Program-made: the position numbers and the translations under genes
Source of the DNA: a virus
Taxonomy: Duplodnaviria; Caudoviricetes
DNA length: 40,728 nucleotides
Virus record (IMG/VR): IMGVR_UViG_3300034100_000027
Coordinates: 1 to 40,728 of that record
Reading direction: 5' to 3' (one strand)
In this document: positions 7,796 to 40,728 of the stretch, piece by piece
Position numbering within the stretch: position 1 is the first letter of the stretch
Layout: the number at the start of each line of letters is the position of its first letter
Notes under the pieces: model-generated
Told to the model about the DNA's origin: nothing
Database searches by the model: none
Seen by the model: only the letters and a program-made list of their open reading frames with translations

Positions 7796-7890
7796 AGGTA
7801 TCTCCTTGCCCGCACCATGCGGGTTGCGCCACTATAGCAAAATAAATATCCATTGGGTATTGACAAACAATATCCAACGGGCAAATAATT
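7788..7890 (+). promoter_or_regulatory. OL-like region: early promoter and operators
   Basis: TTGACA 7860-7865 and AATAAT 7884-7889; operators TATCCATTGGGTA and TATCCAACGGGCA match those at 6251-6311. Confidence 0.75.
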
Positions 7891-7948: not shown

Positions 7949-8419
7949 TCAAGCCAGCGCCGCAATCACCCGCTCAGCGCGCGTCAATGGCTGCGCATGG
8001 CCTGGCTGGCCGATGGCGCGCACCACATCGTTGTAGACCACATTGCGCAGTGGCTCAATCTCGGGTGCGCACGACTGGCGCGCCACGTTGAGGGCCTGCT
8101 CCAGATCGTCCGCGCCCATGTGCTGGCTGCTGACCAGCAGCGCGGTGAAGCGGCGCATGTCGGCCTCGTTGGCGGCCGCCTTGTCGGCGGGGCGCACAGC
8201 CACCAGCGCCGCACCGACCACGGCCAACAACACACCGCCCGCAATGGGCAGCCAGGGCGGCGCCCAGTGCGTCAAGGCGCTCAGCGTGCCGCTGCCGCCC
8301 AGCACCGCCAAGAAGGTGCCAGCGGTCTGCACGCGCCGGTACAAGCGCGCCGCGCGCTGAGACAGGCGCTCGGCGTACTGCACCTCGGCGCGCAAGATGT
8401 CAACAGATTTATCGGTCAT
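7949..8419 (-). CDS. Two-TM membrane protein, SLATT-like
   Basis: Basic N-terminal helix, two adjacent hydrophobic segments, helical C-terminal tail; AGGAG RBS. Confidence 0.65.
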   Translation of the reverse strand: MTDKSVDILRAEVQYAERLSQRAARLYRRVQTAGTFLAVLGGSGTLSALTHWAPPWLPIAGGVLLAVVGAALVAVRPADKAAANEADMRRFTALLVSSQHMGADDLEQALNVARQSCAPEIEPLRNVVYNDVVRAIGQPGHAQPLTRAERVIAALA

Positions 8420-8423
8420 GGTG

Positions 8424-8522
8424 TCAGGCTCCTGATGATCCCCGCCACTGCGGCGGCGGAGGCGCCGGCGGTGGCAAGGGGCGCGGCGGCCGGTGTGACC
8501 GCTGCTCCAAAAAAGGTTTCAT
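8424..8522 (-). CDS. Proline-rich 32-aa peptide
   Basis: GAGGAGG RBS then MKPFLEQRSHRPPRPLPPPAPPPPQWRGSSGA; stop 4 bp before the 2TM gene. Confidence 0.55.
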   Translation of the reverse strand: MKPFLEQRSHRPPRPLPPPAPPPPQWRGSSGA

Positions 8523-8610
8523 GGGCCTCCTCGTTGGGCGACGATTGCGGTGTCGGAGCTTGCAATATACCCCTTCTGCGGAGGCCCGCCAACACCACCG
8601 GGGTGCCCGC

Positions 8611-9213
8611 ATGACCACCCGCATCCTCTGCACCCCGCAGGCCTGGCCCCTGCCGCCCGAGGGCGAGCTGCTCACCTGCCTGGACGGCCGCTACACCAGC
8701 GTCGTCTACAACTGGCACCCGTGCCAGGGCCTCACGCCCGGCGCGCTGCACGTCACGCACCTGCACCCGATTGACCTGGAGTACTTCGGCCACCTGGCCG
8801 ACGCCGCCGTGCGCGGCTGGCGTGGCGAGCCCGGCTGGAGCGAGACCGCGCCAACCCCGGCGCACACCCCCACCATGCGCGCGCCCACGGTGCGCCCGCT
8901 GCCGCGGCCCGCGTTGCGCAGCGTGGGGCATGCAGACAGCGGCCTGCTGATCTGGATCGGCGCCATCATGGTGTGCCTGCTCGTCGGCGCCGCCGGCCTG
9001 CTCGATGGCGCGCCAGACGGCGCAGACGACGCGCAGCACGCCCGCGCACTTGAGTCTGCGCAGTGGATCGAGCAGCGCCAGGCCGCGCACGCCAGCGCCA
9101 TGCAAGAGCGCTGCGGCCCCAATGCGGCGTGGGTGCAAGCGTCTCACGGTCGCACCTGGTGCGCAGACAAGCGCGGCCGCGTGCCCCGCCCGGCGCTGGA
9201 GGCTGCCCCATGA
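8611..9213 (+). CDS. Hypothetical protein (1 TM)
   Basis: 200 aa; first of a chain of ATGA-coupled early genes. Confidence 0.6.
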   Translation: MTTRILCTPQAWPLPPEGELLTCLDGRYTSVVYNWHPCQGLTPGALHVTHLHPIDLEYFGHLADAAVRGWRGEPGWSETAPTPAHTPTMRAPTVRPLPRPALRSVGHADSGLLIWIGAIMVCLLVGAAGLLDGAPDGADDAQHARALESAQWIEQRQAAHASAMQERCGPNAAWVQASHGRTWCADKRGRVPRPALEAAP

Positions 9214-12011: not shown

Positions 12012-12616
12012 CCCCCCGCGAAACCCTGGCGCTCTTCTGTGCCCATCCGCTGCACAGGAGAGACTACCTGCACAACCCCTGGCGCGCGCCCGGCCACGGC
12101 ATGGTGGCCACCAATGGGCATGTCATGGTCGTACTGCCCGATGACGGCGGCGAACTGGCGCCCGAGCCCAACAAAGAGCACCTGATTGGCGTCGTCGGCA
12201 GGTTCTTGGCTCAATGGCCCGGCGGCCCGGTGTGGTACAGGCTTGCTGATGTGCAGCTTCCGCCAAGCCAGGCCTGCCCAGACTGCAACGGCAGCGGCAT
12301 CTACCACTACATCACCTGTCCCGCCTGTCGTGGCGACGGAAGGTCGAACGATGATAGCTACTGCACATCGTGCAATGGCGAAGGTGCCATCCCCGTCGAC
12401 AGCGGACATCCTGAAGCCCAACCGATGGAGTGCGTCAGTTGCAGCGGCAGTGGTGTTGAATTTCAAAGAGTCAAGGTCGGCACCGGTTGCTATTCACTGA
12501 ACTACCTGCAAATCCTGGCCAGCCTGCCCAATTGAGAGGTGTCTCCCCACGAGACAGAGGGCGCCGCCTTCCGCTTCAGCGGCGGGCACGGCTGGCTGAT
12601 GCCTGTGAGGATGTGA
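12008..12616 (+). pseudogene. CxxCxGxG zinc-finger protein with an in-frame TGA at 12533-12535
   Basis: Four CxxCxGxG motifs and VATNGH; the frame continues 26 sense codons past the TGA to a plausible C-terminus (AAFRFSGGHGWLMPVRM). Confidence 0.55.
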
Positions 12617-12654
12617 GCGTAGACCAAACAGCAACACACACAAGGACCAACCCC

Positions 12655-14736
12655 ATGACCAACCAATTCGCCCAAATCGCCCTGACCCTGATCGCCCCCA
12701 GCCTCAGCAACCCGCGCAAAACCTTCAACCAGGCCAAGCTGGCCGAGCTGGCCGAGAGCATCAAGGCCAGCGGCGTGCACCAGCCCGTGCTGGTGCGCAT
12801 GCTGCCCGGCAGCCGCGCGCCTGACACCGACCGCCAAGTCATCTACGAGCTGGTCTGCGGCGAGCGCCGCCTGCGTGCCAGCCTGATGGCCGGCGTGGAC
12901 ACCATCCCCACCATGATCCGCGACCTCAGCGACGCCCAGGTGCTGGAGATCCAGATCGTCGAGAACCTGCAACGCGACGACCTCAGCCCGCTCGAAGAGG
13001 CCGAGGGCTACGAGCAGCTCATGCGGCACAGCAACCTGAGCGCCGAGCAGGTGGCCCAGAAGATCGGCAAGAGCCGCACCTACGTCTTCAACCGCCTCAA
13101 GCTGCTGGACCTTGGCACCGACGGCCGCGCCGCCCTGCGCGACGGCAAGATCGAAGCCAGCGTCGCCATGCTCGTCGCGCGCATCCCAGACGGCAAGCAG
13201 CAGGCCAAGTTCCTCAAAGACGTGCTGCGCGGCGACGGCTACTACGGCGAGCTCGACCCCCTCAGCTACCGCGCCGCCCAGCAACTCGCCCAAGACAGCT
13301 ACATGCTCAAGCTGTCCGACGCCCGCTTCAAGTCCACCGCAGCAGACCTGCTGCCCGGCGTCGGAAGCTGTAAAGACTGCGCCAAGCGCACCGGCGCCAA
13401 CCCCGACCTCTTCGCCGACGTCAAGAGTGCCGACGTCTGCACAGATCCATCTTGCTACCACAAAAAGGAAGAGGCCGCCACCGAGCTGTTGGTGAAAGAG
13501 GCCGAGGCCAAGGGCCAGACCGTCATCGCCGGCGACGAAGCCCGCGAGCTGATCACCAACCACTACACCGGCGCGTACAAGGGATACAAACGCCTCGACA
13601 ACAAGGAAGACAGCCCCACGGACGAGCCCCTGCGCAAGATCATCGGCAAGCTCATGGAAGAGCGGGGCATCAAGCCCACCATGCTGGAGAACCCCAAGAA
13701 GAAGGGCCAACTGGAGGCCTGCCTACCCAATGACGTGGCCAACAGCCTGCTCAAGACCGTGCAGGAGCAGGCCAAGGCCAACCAGAAATCCGCGCCCAAG
13801 GAAATCAAGGACCTGCTCGACGAGAAGGCCAGCCAGGACAAGGCCCGCCTGGACGCCAAGTTCGAGCGCGAGGTGCGCGCGCAAATCATCGCCGAGACCT
13901 GGGCCGAGATTCTGGCCACCGACCACATGGACGACGCCGAACGCATCGGCACGAGCTACTTCAACCTGGACGTCCACCGCATGCTTGCCAGCCAGGCGGC
14001 CTGGAGCCTCGACGCCGACGGCGCAGCCGCCGCCAGCAAGCTGCTGGCCACCGGCAGCGTAGGCGCCCAGCACGGCCTCAAGGAGCTGGCCAAGACCCAC
14101 CCGCGCCCTGACCAGTTGCACCTGCTCTTCCTGCTGCACGCCCGCAGCGGCGAGGGCTTCGGCCTGGTCACCAAGGCCGTATGGGGCGACAAGCTCAAAG
14201 CCGCCACCACGCGCATCGAGGCCGAAGTCAAGGCCCGCATCTACCCCAAGTCAACCGCCAAAAAAGCACCCACCACCCCCGCCCCTGCTGCGCAAGCGCG
14301 CGGGGCGCGGGGGAAGACGAGCGCGGCGACGATCTCGGCCGCCGAAGCAAAGCAAGGCATCGCTACCGCGATGCAGGGCCTTGAAGGGCCGGCTTCTGCG
14401 CCCAAGGGCGCAGTGGCGCCGACCACCGGGCCAGCAGGTGGCAAGCAGGCGGCCGCCTGGCCCTTCCAGCCCACCGCCAAACGCGACCGCGGCACCCCTG
14501 CCGCCCAGCGCCAGGCCACAGCAGCAGACGCCGCCCAGGCCGATCCCATTGATCCCCTCTACACCAAAGCCCTCCAGACCATCACCAAGGCCCAAAAGGC
14601 CAGCGTGCGCCTCCTGAAGGAAAAGTTGAGCATCGGCACCGACAGGGCCATGGACCTCATGGAGCAGCTCGAAGCCGCAGGCAAGGTCAGCGCTGCCGAA
14701 GAGCGCGGGGCCAGAAAGGTGTTGGTGGCAGCATGA
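12655..14736 (+). CDS. ParB/RepB/Spo0J-family protein with C-terminal FtsK-gamma-like domain
   Basis: [30 protein letters not shown]; C-terminal [42 protein letters not shown]; AAGGA RBS. Confidence 0.85.
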
Positions 14737-15281
14737 CCAAAAACAAAAAGCCCCGCAAGCCCTACCGCCCTCGCCGGATCGCCTGCAACACGCTGGACAT
14801 CGCCCTGCACCACGCCGCCAAGCCCACCCCCGAAGACCTGCAAGACGTGCTGCAACCCATCGCCCAATGCATCAAGGCCCTGCGCGAGGGCGTAGCCACC
14901 GAAGGCCAATGGGCCATCGCCGCCGGCGCCGTGCAAATGGCCATGGCCATCGAGCGCCAGGGCATCGTGCGCGGCCTGGCAGAGGATCTGGCCGACGCAG
15001 AGCGCGCCCTGCAAAGCATCTACCGCCGCGCCACGGCCACCGGCGAATGGAAGAGCACCGCCCTCTACCACCAGGAAATCAATGATCTGCACACCTTCCT
15101 GAATCTCCACACCTTCCAGCTCCGCCAACTCGGCCGCCGCGAATTCCTGCGCGCCGTCGACGGCGCCGAGCGCCAGGTGCGCCGGGACGGCCACGTGCCG
15201 AGCAGAAGTAAATTATTGGCTAACGCCGAGGTAAATGGCGGGCGGCTTGCCGCCCGTCCAAGCGCCGAAGGCGCGGTTTGA
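14733..15281 (+). CDS. Hypothetical phage protein; C-terminus runs into attC
   Basis: ATGA-coupled; KKPRKPYRPR N-terminus. Confidence 0.75.
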   Translation: MTKNKKPRKPYRPRRIACNTLDIALHHAAKPTPEDLQDVLQPIAQCIKALREGVATEGQWAIAAGAVQMAMAIERQGIVRGLAEDLADAERALQSIYRRATATGEWKSTALYHQEINDLHTFLNLHTFQLRQLGRREFLRAVDGAERQVRRDGHVPSRSKLLANAEVNGGRLAARPSAEGAV

Positions 15282-15295
15282 CCGCGATGTTATGT
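15218..15295 (-). mobile_element. attC-like site A1 (78 bp)
   Basis: Minus strand: ACATAAC-atcgc-GGTCAAAC..hairpins..ATTTACC-tcggc-GTTAGCC; the L'' box has one extra C. Confidence 0.8.
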
Positions 15296-15308
15296 GTGGG
15301 AGATTGAA

Positions 15309-15587
15309 ATGCTGAAATACGTTGTTTGCCCCGGAATCGTGACCAGCAAGACAGACGGGCAGCGGCATTACGTCGGCCCTATGCAGCTAATGAAACTGTA
15401 CGGGGTTGATCCGCGAGAGTGCGAGATTTACGAGCCTGCTCCATGGTGGCCGAGCGCAATTTATAAGCAAGAGCAGGAACGGCACGCCGCATTGAGACTG
15501 GTTCGACTTGAGCCTCGCTATGACGGCAACTACACCATACCGACACATAACGCCAAATTAAGCGGGCGCGAAGCGATCCGCTCTTGA
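15309..15587 (+). CDS. Cassette-borne hypothetical protein
   Basis: GGAGATTGAAATG start; lower GC; lies between two attC sites. Confidence 0.75.
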   Translation: MLKYVVCPGIVTSKTDGQRHYVGPMQLMKLYGVDPRECEIYEPAPWWPSAIYKQEQERHAALRLVRLEPRYDGNYTIPTHNAKLSGREAIRS

Positions 15588-15601
15588 ATGACAAGTTATG
15601 C
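15545..15601 (-). mobile_element. attC-like site A2 (57 bp)
   Basis: Minus strand: GCATAAC-ttgtc-ATTCAAGA-GCGG..CCGC-TTAAT-ttggc-GTTATGT. Confidence 0.8.
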
Positions 15602-15626
15602 CGGGAACGGCGAAAGGAGAACTGAA

Positions 15627-15836
15627 ATGCTGATGAATCCACCCGTACTGCAAGCCGATTATGTGCCCGCCGTACCTGCCAATGATCTGGTGCTGGCGCT
15701 TCAACTGATACAGCACGCTACTGCACCGACCCCGGACGACGGCGGGCACCACGAGGCTGCGCATGACATTGCCAGCGAAGTGCTATTGCGTGTTGATGCG
15801 CGCAGGAAGTACGAGGCACGGCATAACAAGATATAG
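15627..15836 (+). CDS. Cassette-borne hypothetical protein
   Basis: AAGGAGAACTGAAATG start; 69 aa. Confidence 0.7.
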   Translation: MLMNPPVLQADYVPAVPANDLVLALQLIQHATAPTPDDGGHHEAAHDIASEVLLRVDARRKYEARHNKI

Positions 15837-15839
15837 GCA
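15821..15839 (-). mobile_element. attI-like simple site heading array A
   Basis: Minus strand TGCCTAT-ATCTT-GTTATGC; the R box is complementary to R'' of attC A2. Confidence 0.5.
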
Positions 15840-15872
15840 TCTCGTTAACGCTCTTTGCCCACGAATTAAGCA

Positions 15873-16169
15873 ATGTCCTACGCAAAAAAACGCTACCGCC
15901 TAGACCAGCTCGACGCCATGCGTGAGGCGCGGGCGGCGCGGCGGCTTGCGCGTGAGGTTGACTATCCAGCCCCGCGCCAACCTGGCCTCTTGGTGCTTGA
16001 CATCAATGGCCAGCGCATCGAGCTTGACCTCCATCCAGACGCGCGCGACTGTCGGCGCTGGCGCGCTTACCGCGACGGCCAGCCCTACACATGCGGCGGC
16101 CTCGAGCGCATTTGGCGCAAAGTGAAAGCCGACATGGCCCCGCTGATCGGGGCCAGGAATCTACTATGA
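15873..16169 (+). CDS. Hypothetical protein
   Basis: 98 aa ORF on the operon strand. Confidence 0.65.
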   Translation: MSYAKKRYRLDQLDAMREARAARRLAREVDYPAPRQPGLLVLDINGQRIELDLHPDARDCRRWRAYRDGQPYTCGGLERIWRKVKADMAPLIGARNLL

Positions 16170-16209: not shown

Positions 16210-16491
16210 ATGAACACCGCTTTTTTGCTCATGGCTCAATACGACGCGGCCGCCATCATCCCAGTCGATAAGGTGGTCAAGGATTACTTTCCCCACCTCA
16301 GCACGGAAAAGTTCCTGCGCAAAGTTGCGATCGGCGACATCGACATTCCGCTCACCCGCATCGAAAGTGGATCGCAGAAAGCGGCCAGGGGCGTGCACTT
16401 GACAGACCTGGCCACCTACATCGATGCGCGACGTGCGGCAGCAGTAAAAGAGGCCCGCCAGATATCTGGCCTCTCCGCCAGTGCTACATGA
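16210..16491 (+). CDS. Pyocin activator PrtN-family protein (likely recombination directionality factor)
   Basis: MNTAFLLMAQY..SQKAARGVHLTDLATYID signature; adjacent to attP and int. Confidence 0.85.
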   Translation: MNTAFLLMAQYDAAAIIPVDKVVKDYFPHLSTEKFLRKVAIGDIDIPLTRIESGSQKAARGVHLTDLATYIDARRAAAVKEARQISGLSASAT

Positions 16492-16731: not shown

Positions 16732-17799
16732 ATGGGAACGATTATCTCACGCAAGCGAAAAGACGGCACCATCGGGCACACCGCGCAGATCCGGCTCAAG
16801 GACGGCGGCAAGACCATTTTCACCGAATCGCAGACCTTTGATCGTAAGCCCGCAGCACAGGCCTGGCTGAAGAAGCGCGAGACCGAGCTGGCGGTGCCAG
16901 GTGCGCTGATCAAGCCCAGCGACCCCACCCTGGCCGCCGTAATCGACAAGTACAACGCGGACAAGCTGCGCCCGCATGGCAAGACCAAAGACCAGGTGCT
17001 GCGCACCATCAAGGCATCTGCCCTGGGCGAGCTGCGCTGCTCAGAGATCAAGAGCCACACGCTGGTGGAGTACATCCAGTCCATGACGTCACAGCCGCAG
17101 ACCCGCGGCAACTACCTGTCGCACTTGGCAGCCGTCTTCAGCGTGGCCAGGCCGGCATGGGGTTACCCGCTGGACAAAGGGGCGATCGACGACGCGCGGG
17201 TGGTGGCCGACAAGCTGGGGCTGATCAGCCGATCCAGACAGCGCACCAGGCGCCCCACGCTGCAAGAGCTGGACAAGCTGCTGACCTACTACGCTGCCTA
17301 CGAAAAGAAACGCAGCAACGCCATTCCCATGACGCGGCTGATCCTTTTCAGCATCTTTTCCACCCGCCGCCAAGAAGAGACCTGCCGCATGGTGGCTGAG
17401 GACCTGAACGCCGACCAGGCCGAGATCATCGTGCGCGACATGAAGAACCCCGGCGAGAAGATCGGCAACGACGTCACGACCCTGCTGACGCCCGAGGCCC
17501 TGCAGCTCATCCAGCAGCGCCACGTGGCCAATGGCCGCATCTGGCCATACAACGCCGAGTCGGTCAGCGCATCGTTCACCCGTGCCTGCGTGCTGCTGGG
17601 CATCGAGGATCTGCATTTCCACGACCTGCGGCATGAGGGCATCAGCCGCCTGTTCGAGCTGGGCTGGAACATCCCGCGCGTGGCCTGTGTCTCTGGCCAC
17701 CGCTCCTGGAAAAGCCTGCAACGCTACACCCACCTCAAACAGACGGGCGACAAGTACAAGGATTGGGAGTGGAAGAGCAAGCTGCTTGCGGGGGATTAG
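16732..17799 (+). CDS. int: Tyrosine integrase (dusA-associated type)
   Basis: Catalytic R (TRRQEE), K, HDLRH, SGH and RY motifs; adjacent dusA-like att core. Confidence 0.92.
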   Translation: MGTIISRKRKDGTIGHTAQIRLKDGGKTIFTESQTFDRKPAAQAWLKKRETELAVPGALIKPSDPTLAAVIDKYNADKLRPHGKTKDQVLRTIKASALGELRCSEIKSHTLVEYIQSMTSQPQTRGNYLSHLAAVFSVARPAWGYPLDKGAIDDARVVADKLGLISRSRQRTRRPTLQELDKLLTYYAAYEKKRSNAIPMTRLILFSIFSTRRQEETCRMVAEDLNADQAEIIVRDMKNPGEKIGNDVTTLLTPEALQLIQQRHVANGRIWPYNAESVSASFTRACVLLGIEDLHFHDLRHEGISRLFELGWNIPRVACVSGHRSWKSLQRYTHLKQTGDKYKDWEWKSKLLAGD

Positions 17800-38860: not shown

Positions 38861-38879
38861 GGCTTATTTGGCGTTGGGC
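38861..38879 (+). mobile_element. attI-like simple site heading array B
   Basis: GGCTTAT-TTGGC-GTTGGGC; the R box is complementary to R'' of attC B1. Confidence 0.5.
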
Positions 38880-39148
38880 GCCATGATTCTGGCGTGGCTT
38901 AATGCCTCAATCTGATCGTCATTTAGATTCGCGGCGTGGTCGATCACGATCCCGCTAAATTCGCAAGCCCGGATATTTCTCCTATCCAGCCACGATGGTG
39001 GCTTTATTTCCAGATCATCGCGCCCGAGGCCAGCCGCCAGCATTTCCGGGTAGGCCAGATGCTGGTTCACCCAAACGTACACGGCGCACTCTGGCGCTGC
39101 CAGCATTTGTTTTGTGGTTCTTCCGGTTTGCCTGTCATCCATTTCCAT
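38864..39148 (-). CDS. Cassette-borne hypothetical protein
   Basis: 94 aa, GGAGAGG RBS; RQTGRTT..IVIDHA resembles a degenerate P-loop. Confidence 0.7.
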   Translation of the reverse strand: MEMDDRQTGRTTKQMLAAPECAVYVWVNQHLAYPEMLAAGLGRDDLEIKPPSWLDRRNIRACEFSGIVIDHAANLNDDQIEALSHARIMAPNAK

Positions 39149-39164
39149 TCCTCTCCGGGCCTGT

Positions 39165-39227
39165 GCCCAACCTTACGGTGCAGCCGAGCCGCCGCAAGCG
39201 GCGTCCTGCTGACCTTTTACGTTCGGC
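39165..39227 (+). mobile_element. attC-like site B1 (63 bp)
   Basis: GCCCAAC-cttac-GGTGCAGC..GCCGC-AA-GCGGC..GCTGACC-ttttac-GTTCGGC. Confidence 0.8.
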
Positions 39228-39466
39228 GTCTTCGTGAAATCGACAGCCTCGCCGTTAAGCATGTCCACGCGGCGCGGTGAGTAGTCATTGATGCCTGACT
39301 TCGAGACGATCCAGTGGCCATCCCACCCCGCAAAAGTGATCCAGCGCTTTGTGCCTGGGCACTTTGTCACGCGCAGCCGGTCTCCGGTTTTCAGCACCTT
39401 CTTGGCGTTCTCCTCGGCAATGAGGCGCAGCCTCCTGTTCTCTGCTCGCTGTTCTTCAGTCAACAT
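39173..39466 (-). CDS. Cassette-borne hypothetical protein
   Basis: GGAGACTGAAATG start; 97 aa. Confidence 0.7.
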   Translation of the reverse strand: MLTEEQRAENRRLRLIAEENAKKVLKTGDRLRVTKCPGTKRWITFAGWDGHWIVSKSGINDYSPRRVDMLNGEAVDFTKTPNVKGQQDAACGGSAAP

Positions 39467-39750
39467 TTCAGTCTCCATTGTTCTGGCCGGCAGCCGCCGA
39501 ACTCTACGTTCTGCCCTTGTGCCGTGCGGACAAACTCTGCCGCCTCCGCTGCGGGCACCCACCGGTCGCCGAGGAATTTCCGGTCTTTCACCGGCATCAC
39601 GCGCAGCTGCTCGTTTTTGTACGGGTGCCGCGCTGCCAAGGCCGCGAGATCGTCCGCAAACTCGAAGGCGTATTGCCGGCACCCCTTGCCAAAGCGGTAC
39701 ACCAGCGCCGCCAGTGGCGGAATGCCGGGTTGCTGTTTCTCCGTGTTCAT
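39460..39750 (-). CDS. Hypothetical protein
   Basis: ATGA-coupled to terS; AAGGGG RBS. Confidence 0.65.
   Translation of the reverse strand: MNTEKQQPGIPPLAALVYRFGKGCRQYAFEFADDLAALAARHPYKNEQLRVMPVKDRKFLGDRWVPAAEAAEFVRTAQGQNVEFGGCRPEQWRLKC
39496..39514 (+). mobile_element. Collapsed attC remnant B2
   Basis: GCCGAAC-TCTAC-GTTCTGC: R'' and R' present, L boxes and stem missing. Confidence 0.6.
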
Positions 39751-40305: not shown

Positions 40306-40728
40306 TCACTGGGTCGAATGGAATGGCTGGCCGGTGGTGGCGTGCACGGCACGCTGGCCGGTGTAGTCTTGCCAGCGGCGGACGATGACGTCGACGTAGA
40401 TGGCCTGCATTTCCATCGTGTAGCAGACCCGCCCGCTCGCCTCGGCACCCATCAGCGTGGATCCGCTGCCGCCGAAGGGCTCGGCGCACAGGCCGCCCAC
40501 CGGCAAGCTGGAGCGCATGACGCGCTCCATCATGGCGACTGGCTTCGGTGTTGCGTGACTGTGGCGTTCGTCTCCATGAACTCTGTCAAATTTCCACACG
40601 TCACCCATGGAGTCGTGCGTGTTGTCGAAGTAGGACAGTGTGGCGTAGTGGTCACGCCGGATCGCATCGTGGTCACGCCGGATCGCATCGTGGTCACGCC
40701 GGATCGCATCGTGGTCACGCCGGATCGC
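40306..40728 (-). CDS. DNA methyltransferase, 3' part
   Basis: HATPKPV and EPFGGSGST (SAM-binding motif I); in frame with 1-1246 through the terminal overlap. Confidence 0.9.
   Translation of the reverse strand, partial: AIRRDHDAIRRDHDAIRRDHDAIRRDHYATLSYFDNTHDSMGDVWKFDRVHGDERHSHATPKPVAMMERVMRSSLPVGGLCAEPFGGSGSTLMGAEASGRVCYTMEMQAIYVDVIVRRWQDYTGQRAVHATTGQPFHSTQ
40599..40724. repeat. Terminal direct repeat (circular assembly overlap), copy 2
   Basis: Identical to 1-126. Confidence 0.95.

What the first reader, a model, noticed from the sequence alone, without database searches (positions are those of the whole stretch)
15218..15839. Integrase-less integron-like cassette array A in the phage early operon
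Seen, reading the minus strand: simple site ..GTTATGC (15827-15821), then a 276-bp unit ending in an attC that starts GCATAAC and ends GTTATGT, then a 327-bp unit ending in an attC that starts ACATAAC and ends GTTAGCC. Each R'' box is the exact reverse complement of the R' at the start of its own unit. The L boxes pair with one extra base. Established: this is the signature of integron cassettes that excise as circles; integrons are regarded as rare in phages. No IntI gene is present in this genome. Inference: the phage captures or shuffles small genes using a host integron integrase in trans.
Basis: partly seen in the sequence, partly recalled or inferred. Interest (0 to 1): 0.9.

Follow-up and report, generated by a model that had tools for sequence, protein, structure and literature searches.

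The report
Backward integron cassettes in temperate phage
This temperate phage carries two small genes boxed by integron-type recombination sites, with the genes facing the opposite way from those in bacterial integrons and no integron enzyme in its record, so the array was likely built, and could likely still be reshuffled, by an integron integrase supplied from outside.

Summary
Observation confirmed to the base. A model built only from bacterial attC sites hits both sites (and a third at 39165-39227). The R''/R' chain arose in 0 of 300 simulations. This layout holds in 58 of 74 units from similar arrays (1 forward); the longest ORF is forward in 37 of 38 bacterial cassettes. The 327-bp cassette occurs elsewhere with other neighbours, switching at the crossover boxes; sister phages differ at such sites. 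No IntI in this record (90% complete). IntI occurs in 79 of 201 genomes of the likely host family, but also in a related phage and in a phage-specific IntI group with the same reversed arrays. So the enzyme's source is open. One attC folds poorly; present activity is untested. The cargo are ordinary phage genes also found without attC. Phage CALINs and IntI1 activity on phage attCs are published (PMC9892861); three of its four figured CALINs are reversed by my check, unremarked in the text I read. This scan found such arrays before on other DNA. New variant of a known kind.

The parts
15821..15839 (-). Terminal simple site: R box G|TTATGC (crossover 15827/15826) with a CTA box 6 nt upstream; attI-like or a worn attC half; the CTA is also the TAG stop of cas1
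15551..15826 (-). Cassette 1, 276 bp, from G|TT of the simple site to G|TT of attC1
15627..15836 (+). cas1, 69 aa, two-helix phage protein of unknown function; AGGAG at 15615; reads through the crossover and stops in the simple site
15545..15601 (-). attC1, 57 bp, top strand minus (recombinogenic bottom strand = coding strand); 2-nt extra bulge, predicted fold probability 1.7e-3
15224..15550 (-). Cassette 2, 327 bp
15309..15587 (+). cas2, 92 aa, phrog_7644, unknown function; GGGAG at 15298; last 12 codons and stop lie in attC1
15218..15295 (-). attC2, 78 bp, branched terminal loop; predicted fold probability 0.11 (bottom) vs 0.026 (top)
15201..15223 (+). 23-nt AT-rich stretch replacing the normal end of orfU; likely the stub of a deleted third cassette (inferred)
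   Evidence: no match in viral contigs
14733..15281 (+). orfU (phrog_20828), conserved upstream phage gene, here reading on through attC2
15873..16169 (+). 98-aa ORF downstream of the simple site, no family match
16210..16491 (+). Excisionase
16732..17799 (+). Ordinary phage tyrosine integrase, not an IntI
7860..7889 (+). Best sigma-70-like promoter (11 of 12), facing the operon that contains the array; function inferred
38867..39227 (+). Second reversed unit (array B): simple site G|TTGGGC at 38873, 348-bp cassette, attC 39165-39227; genes on minus strand

Best explanation
The region is a two-cassette integron-type array whose genes run opposite to the attC sites and along the phage early operon, and it was likely assembled by an integron integrase acting in trans, most likely the host's. 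Shown by sequence: each unit is [gene 3' end | gene | attC], so on the coding strand the attC stands in front of its gene, and the gene ends at, or reads through, the AAC of the next site. Inferred: IntI binds the folded coding strand of an attC and cuts at AA|C; recombination of attC1 with attC2 would release cassette 2 as a circle; circles would enter at the terminal simple site, which is the promoter-distal end. Inferred: because the phage's own early transcript crosses the array from the far side, only reversed cassettes are expressed and kept, each with its own ribosome site. Inferred: ordinary phage genes become cassettes once they lie between two like-oriented attCs. This copy is likely slow or partly worn (attC1 folds poorly, a third cassette is a stub).
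For: Boxes, chain and model hits. Same cas2 cassette in L081 with different genes on both sides, identity falling off at the AAC boxes; several homologues diverge right after the Asn codon of that box. Sister phages L127/L102 (main blocks 94-98% identical) share flank up to the terminal G|TT and then differ; L111 has the same terminal site followed by a cassette that sits fourth in L127; L120/L130 share a 0.95-kb unit with different neighbours. R'' matches the preceding R' in 30 of 45 informative units and its own R' in 6; bacterial control 19 and 1 of 29. Orientation: RBS+ORF reverse-only 58, forward-only 1, both 2, none 13 of 74; longest ORF reverse 42 of 74 vs 1 of 38 in bacteria, p 2e-9. 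Array B is reversed too, on the other strand. L013 has reversed attCs and a similar terminal site at the same place, between orfU and xis; L001 is empty there. IntI in 79 of 201 genomes of the family of a prophage host, and in 1 of 5 genomes holding an orfU prophage. The simple site scores like cellular attI (only one other of 432 GTTR sites as high) and unlike phage-IntI attI or attC. Two reversed-type attCs of phage PH101 were recombined by IntI1, bottom strand preferred (PMC9892861; orientation).
Against: No direct sign of activity here: no joints in two laid runs, contigs only. attC1 fold probability 1.7e-3 lies below the 10th percentile of the scanned sets, which were themselves filtered for folding; in PMC5371416 a pair with 3e-3 and 8e-6 gave no detected excision. 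The attI likeness rests on 10 cellular sites (9 flagged by an R'' match, 1 picked by eye) and a motif noticed after the fact, and its CTA doubles as the in-frame stop of cas1 (also in L013), so selection for a stop could explain it. The host is inferred from orfU relatives only. A phage IntI source exists in the same phage group. The unit missing in L102 lies between two similar attCs, so homologous recombination or slippage fits it as well. By AT skew the bacterial control is less clean (24 of 38 negative vs 68 of 74), and the RBS test calls few bacterial cassettes (8 forward, 4 reverse, 26 uncalled).
Confidence: 0.6

Rival explanations
1. The cassettes were assembled by a phage-encoded IntI (an ancestor of this phage or a co-resident phage) and inherited by recombination; the array is now largely frozen or is served only by such a helper phage.
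For: Complete relative G263/L024 has orfU, two reversed attCs, an attI-like site and IntI (461.7 bits, cut-off 265) besides its phage integrase. 28 viral loci with related IntI; 55 of 67 units reverse-only, 1 forward-only (L205 left out). 21 of 23 viral IntIs form one side of a 99/98 branch. Several of these phages share ParB or integrase homologues with this one. Worn features: attC1 bulge, stub at 15201-15223, half site near 39480.
Against: The phage-IntI attI consensus is well conserved and the window's simple site does not fit it (score -12.1). IntI in only 1 of 39 orfU phage records and 1 of 34 array-bearing records, 0 of 5 of those at least 90% complete, yet IntI-less sister records differ by whole cassettes (L042 29%, L102 99%, L111 28% complete). 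cas1 and cas2 were not found in the IntI-bearing loci.
Confidence: 0.28
2. The attCs came from integrons but now act as short shared repeats for homologous recombination or slippage by phage recombinases, with no IntI step.
For: Identical 48-nt attC cores sit next to 4-5 different genes on their own (R'') side (the search pattern fixed part of the core). A second element in the source run shares attC1 with other flanks on both sides. The L102 deletion lies between similar attCs.
Against: R'' tracks the preceding R' (30 of 45 vs 6 of 45), which crossing over inside a repeat would not maintain. Changes at terminal simple sites need no repeat. Structure and extra base are kept while loops differ.
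Confidence: 0.1
3. Chance palindromes or terminators between phage genes.
For: One weak terminator-like stem lies inside attC2; attC1 folds no better than shuffles at z -1.6.
Against: 0 of 300 simulations; hits from an independent bacterial model; same cassette with other neighbours.
Confidence: 0.01

Closest known systems
CALINs in phage genomes (Qi et al. 2023, PMC9892861; main text read to the start of the reference list, supplement part 1 of 2; figures and Dryad files not seen)
   Same: Two or more attC sites, no intI, in a phage; 17 CALINs in 10,705 phage genomes; 5 of 6 tested attCs recombined with attI1 by IntI1, bottom strand preferred.
   Different: The text I read does not remark on genes opposing the attCs and proposes illegitimate or off-target homologous recombination for their arrival. 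By my check TJE1 is forward while PH101, P12002L and MW202573 are reversed. Here there is also comparative evidence of site-precise exchange, a terminal entry site and a phage IntI group.
Bacterial integrons (intI, attI, Pc, attC array), e.g. those of the likely host family (L158-L178)
   Same: attC anatomy, R''/R' chaining, short single-gene units, intI-attI-attC geometry in the IntI-bearing phages.
   Different: Genes reversed relative to attC; expression would come from the far end, not from a Pc beside attI; cargo are phage families; no intI in this record.
SALINs and cassette insertion at attG/GWT sites (bioRxiv 10.1101/2022.09.11.507474; passages read)
   Same: Small arrays without integrase explained by IntI acting in trans on any GWT site.
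   Different: Those are ordinary cassettes without strand bias of insertion; here orientation is strongly biased and the genes are phage genes.
Top-strand (R'') recombination giving inverted cassettes (PMC5027507; passages read)
   Same: A known route by which a gene ends up facing the wrong way.
   Different: It inverts gene and attC together relative to the array; here the attCs keep one orientation and only the genes are reversed.
Inverted-integrase integrons (as defined in PMC13323075; passages read)
   Same: A described departure from the usual layout.
   Different: There intI is flipped relative to attC; in the IntI-bearing phages here intI and attC keep the regular relation and the ORFs are flipped.

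Membership tests
attC site | R''(..AAC) and R'(GTT..) ends with 5-6 nt spacers to L boxes | tested here: met
attC site | L''/L' pairing with one extrahelical base | tested here: met
   attC1 has an added 2-nt bulge
attC site | Hit by an attC covariance model | tested here: met
   own model from 36 bacterial attCs: 26.8 and 18.4 bits; IntegronFinder's model not available
attC site | Bottom strand folds readily into the recombinogenic form | tested here: inconclusive
   pfold 0.11 for attC2, 1.7e-3 for attC1
attC site | Recombined by IntI | not testable with these tools
   needs an assay; reversed-type PH101 sites were positive in PMC9892861
CALIN | Two or more nearby attCs on one strand | tested here: met
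CALIN | No integron integrase nearby | tested here: met
   record 90% complete
Canonical gene cassette | R'' complementary to the R' at the unit's own start | tested here: met
Canonical gene cassette | ORF on the top strand, ending before its attC | tested here: not met
   ORFs on the bottom strand, attC in front of the gene
Canonical gene cassette | Same unit found in other contexts with junctions at G|TT | tested here: met
   cassette 2 in L081; cassette 1 not found elsewhere as a cassette
Complete integron | intI gene | tested here: not met
   met in relative G263
Complete integron | attI site | tested here: inconclusive
   scores like cellular attI, but small post-hoc set and CTA doubles as a stop codon
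Complete integron | Pc promoter next to attI reading into the array | tested here: not met
   no consensus promoter near the simple site; genes face the other way (consensus scan only)

The most novel reading that the evidence does not exclude
Phages run their own mirror-image integron system: a phage lineage of IntI with its own attI, arrays read from the far end by the phage operon, attCs that can carry the ribosome site and start codon of their gene, and IntI-less phages like this one that keep a docking site and borrow the enzyme. Ordinary phage genes become cassettes when bracketed by attCs, so phages are a place where new cassettes are made and where cassette genesis can be watched.
Probability: 0.45. 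Interest if true: 0.87.

Novelty: new variant of a known kind. Interest (0 to 1): 0.7.

Why it matters
Integrons are held to be rare in phages (17 CALINs in 10,705 genomes, PMC9892861), and correct gene orientation is treated as essential to how they work (PMC5027507). One narrow pattern found 36 viral loci with such sites, most with several, nearly all reversed where callable, and a phage-specific IntI group has the same layout. If IntI drives these arrays, phages have a site-specific tool for swapping accessory genes, a mechanism for part of phage mosaicism. Both cargo families exist with and without attC, and identical attCs sit on different genes, which gives a direct handle on the open question of how cassettes are made (that it is open is from my own knowledge).

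Tried and rejected
Rfam: nothing. attC1 against plasmids: only chance matches. Single-protein locus search with orfU found none; an alignment found 39 viral and 19 cellular loci. Most orfU relatives have no attC: 2 of 39 viral records by model; 2 of 58 loci. cas2 family: 0 of 401 genomes of the host family, with no positive control; flanked by model-detected attCs in 1 of 41 viral loci and in several metagenome loci. The two clear cas1 homologues among 4 viral loci have no adjacent attC. The 23-nt stub had no exact match; a guessed terminal-site pattern matched 0 of 209 loci. Reads: no RNA holder listed; no joints in contigs of two runs, which cannot show absence. Chimeric assembly at attC1 was considered: the contig breaks there, but depths pair 15.4 with 17.7 (window) and 28.1 with 31.1 (another element), and each R''/R' pair lies within one contig. 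Cargo function: no Pfam hit, no Atlas hit, confident cas2 model (pLDDT 92) with no PDB match and only unnamed viral matches; the cas1 model was not searched. Reading the sites on the plus strand as ordinary forward cassettes was rejected: the extra base and the model place the top strand on minus. Literature: nine answered searches listed no paper on reversed phage cassettes or a phage IntI lineage; the library lacks most subscription papers, and bioRxiv supplements, the figures and Dryad annotations of PMC9892861 were not seen and may show the orientation. PMC13366799 and PMC13492144 (passages) add nothing beyond citing PMC9892861.

Full report
The observation. The window is a whole virus record, linear and 90% complete. 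On the minus strand the boxes are exactly as described: GTTATGC at 15827-15821, attC1 at 15601-15545, attC2 at 15295-15218, giving units of 276 and 327 bp, each with R'' complementary to the R' that opens it. The chain occurs once in the window and in 0 of 300 order-1 Markov simulations. For an independent test I fetched 21 intI-linked stretches from bacterial genomes, aligned 36 of their attCs and built a covariance model. It finds attC1 (26.8 bits), attC2 (18.4 bits) and a third site at 39165-39227 (31.9 bits); the next hit has E 2.6. No IntI is in the record; the integrase at 16732-17799 is an ordinary phage one.

The genes are on the plus strand: cas2 (15309-15587, phrog_7644, 35 homologues) and cas1 (15627-15836, 40 hits including itself), each with a ribosome site just after an attC. 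They run with orfU, xis and int, downstream of a near-consensus promoter at 7860-7889. The extra base fixes the attC top strand on minus, so the genes are reversed: the attC stands before its gene and the recombinogenic bottom strand is the coding strand. The second unit near the terminase gene is reversed as well, on the other strand, so the rule follows local gene direction, not one absolute strand.

It is a general layout. One attC pattern gave 36 viral loci. Across 74 distinct units between neighbouring sites (these loci plus L042, two metagenome loci and window cassette 2; only exact duplicates removed, a few near-copies remain), a ribosome site with an ORF of 40 aa or more was reverse-only in 58, forward-only in 1, both in 2, neither in 13. 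In 38 bacterial units the longest ORF was forward in 37, against 32 of 74 in the viral set (p 2e-9). The ribosome-site test calls few bacterial units (8 forward, 4 reverse), and AT skew separates the sets less well. In 16 of 102 viral attCs a ribosome site and start codon lie inside the attC loop on the coding strand, against 4 of 54 bacterial ones (example L042).

Signs of site-specific exchange. R'' matches the preceding R' in 30 of 45 informative viral units and its own R' in 6; bacteria give 19 and 1 of 29. L081 holds the cas2 cassette at about 79% identity with different genes on both sides, the identity falling off at the AAC boxes. L127 and L102 are sister phages whose shared flank stops at the terminal G|TT and whose first cassettes differ; L111 has the same terminal site followed by a cassette that is fourth in L127; L120 and L130 share a 0.95-kb unit between different neighbours. 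The unit missing from L102 lies between similar attCs and does not discriminate between IntI and homologous recombination. Among orfU relatives most have nothing at this place (L001; attC in 2 of 39 records), while L013 has reversed attCs and a similar terminal site between orfU and xis. In the window, orfU has lost its usual end 23 nt before the last crossover, likely the stub of a third cassette.

Who supplies the enzyme. orfU relatives lie in Curvibacter, Limnohabitans, Rhodoferax, Aquabacterium, Variovorax and related genomes, so the host is probably of that family (inference). IntI passes the cut-off in 79 of 201 genomes of the family of the Curvibacter genome and in 1 of 5 genomes with an orfU prophage. 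The simple site has CTA-N6-G|TT, seen in 7 of 10 cellular attI sites, 0 of 15 phage attI rows, 0 of 131 attCs and 6 of 432 background sites. Caveats: small set, motif seen after the fact, and the CTA is the in-frame stop of cas1. On the other side, following a lead from earlier notes of this scan, I found that a complete relative, G263/L024, encodes IntI next to reversed attCs as well as a phage integrase. Its protein retrieved 28 viral loci with attCs on the strand opposite intI; 55 of 67 units were reverse-only and 1 forward-only, leaving out L205, which looks cellular. In a tree of 44 proteins, 21 of 23 viral IntIs form one side of a 99/98 branch (sampling biased by the query, midpoint root only, two short rows and two duplicates dropped... 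four rows in all were exact duplicates, no clade test). They share a conserved attI that the window's site does not fit. IntI was found in 1 of 34 array-bearing records and 0 of the 5 at least 90% complete. Host supply is my first choice, phage supply a strong second.

Is this copy active. Predicted probability of the recombinogenic fold is 0.11 for attC2, 0.86 for the array-B site and 1.7e-3 for attC1. PMC5371416 (passages) reports lower excision with one low-fold site and none detected with two. Contigs of two runs showed no joints but cannot show absence; they did show a second element sharing attC1 with other flanks. I take the array to be slow or partly worn.

The cargo. cas2 relatives occur in 23 records of named phages of varied hosts and in 0 of 401 host-family genomes (no positive control). 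Most viral copies have no attC, and neither do the two clear cas1 homologues. Identical 48-nt attC cores sit beside 4-5 different genes. These fit phage genes being turned into cassettes, not host cassettes being captured (inference). Function of both proteins remains unassigned.

Against what is known. Qi et al. 2023 (PMC9892861) describe phage CALINs and show IntI1 activity on five of six phage attCs. Using their listed bottom strands and my model, TJE1 is forward, and PH101, P12002L and MW202573 are reversed; both PH101 sites were active, and the one P12002L site I located was the one not verified. The text I read does not remark on this; figures were not seen. Nine literature searches listed no paper on the reversed layout or a phage IntI group. 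This scan has noted reversed arrays in at least six other genomes; those notes are unchecked and are not counted as support. The element passes as attC sites and as a CALIN, fails as a canonical cassette array on gene orientation, and fails as a complete integron. Verdict: real, a new variant of a known kind; interest 0.7.

Noticed in passing
window 38867-39520: Second reversed array just upstream of the terminase large-subunit gene: simple site at 38873, 348-bp cassette, attC 39165-39227 (best fold of the three), then a unit whose attC is only a half site near 39480.
   Followed up: partly
L024 6019-8172 (G263): Complete related phage with two reversed attCs, an attI-like site and an IntI gene converging on its ordinary phage integrase; a small separately promoted gene pair sits between attI and the first attC.
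   Followed up: partly
L182-L209, about 85 nt upstream of intI: Conserved attI-like motif (GTCG..GAATT.AAG|TT) shared by most viral IntI loci and unlike the cellular attI sites sampled.
   Followed up: partly
L187 7610-9038: attC hits downstream of intI as well as upstream, same strand.
   Followed up: no
L042 1978-2080 and 3894-3995: Long attC sites that contain the ribosome site and start codon of their own gene, so the protein begins inside the recombination site.
   Followed up: partly
window 15547-15611, run X1 records 4 and 6: A second element at about twice the depth shares a near-identical attC1 with different flanks on both sides.
   Followed up: no
L218, L219, L220 (PH101, P12002L, MW202573): Three of the four phage CALINs figured in PMC9892861 have genes opposite to the attC top strand; TJE1 does not.
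   Followed up: yes
window 15821-15850: The simple site can also fold as a weak 30-nt hairpin closing on a GTTAAC palindrome (-1.3 kcal/mol, not beyond shuffles); it might be a collapsed attC.
   Followed up: partly
L179/L180 (G218): IntI of the viral group matched in two pieces in different frames, possibly broken.
   Followed up: no
window 40649-40728: Short tandem repeat (about 21 nt, four copies) at the record's end, inside what reads like a methyltransferase gene fragment (recalled motif).
   Followed up: no
window 7949-8675: Two small minus-strand ORFs inside the plus-strand early region, just after the main promoter.
   Followed up: no
window 12487-14736: Large ParB-like protein with a C-terminal FtsK-like match, shared with several IntI-bearing phages.
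   Followed up: no
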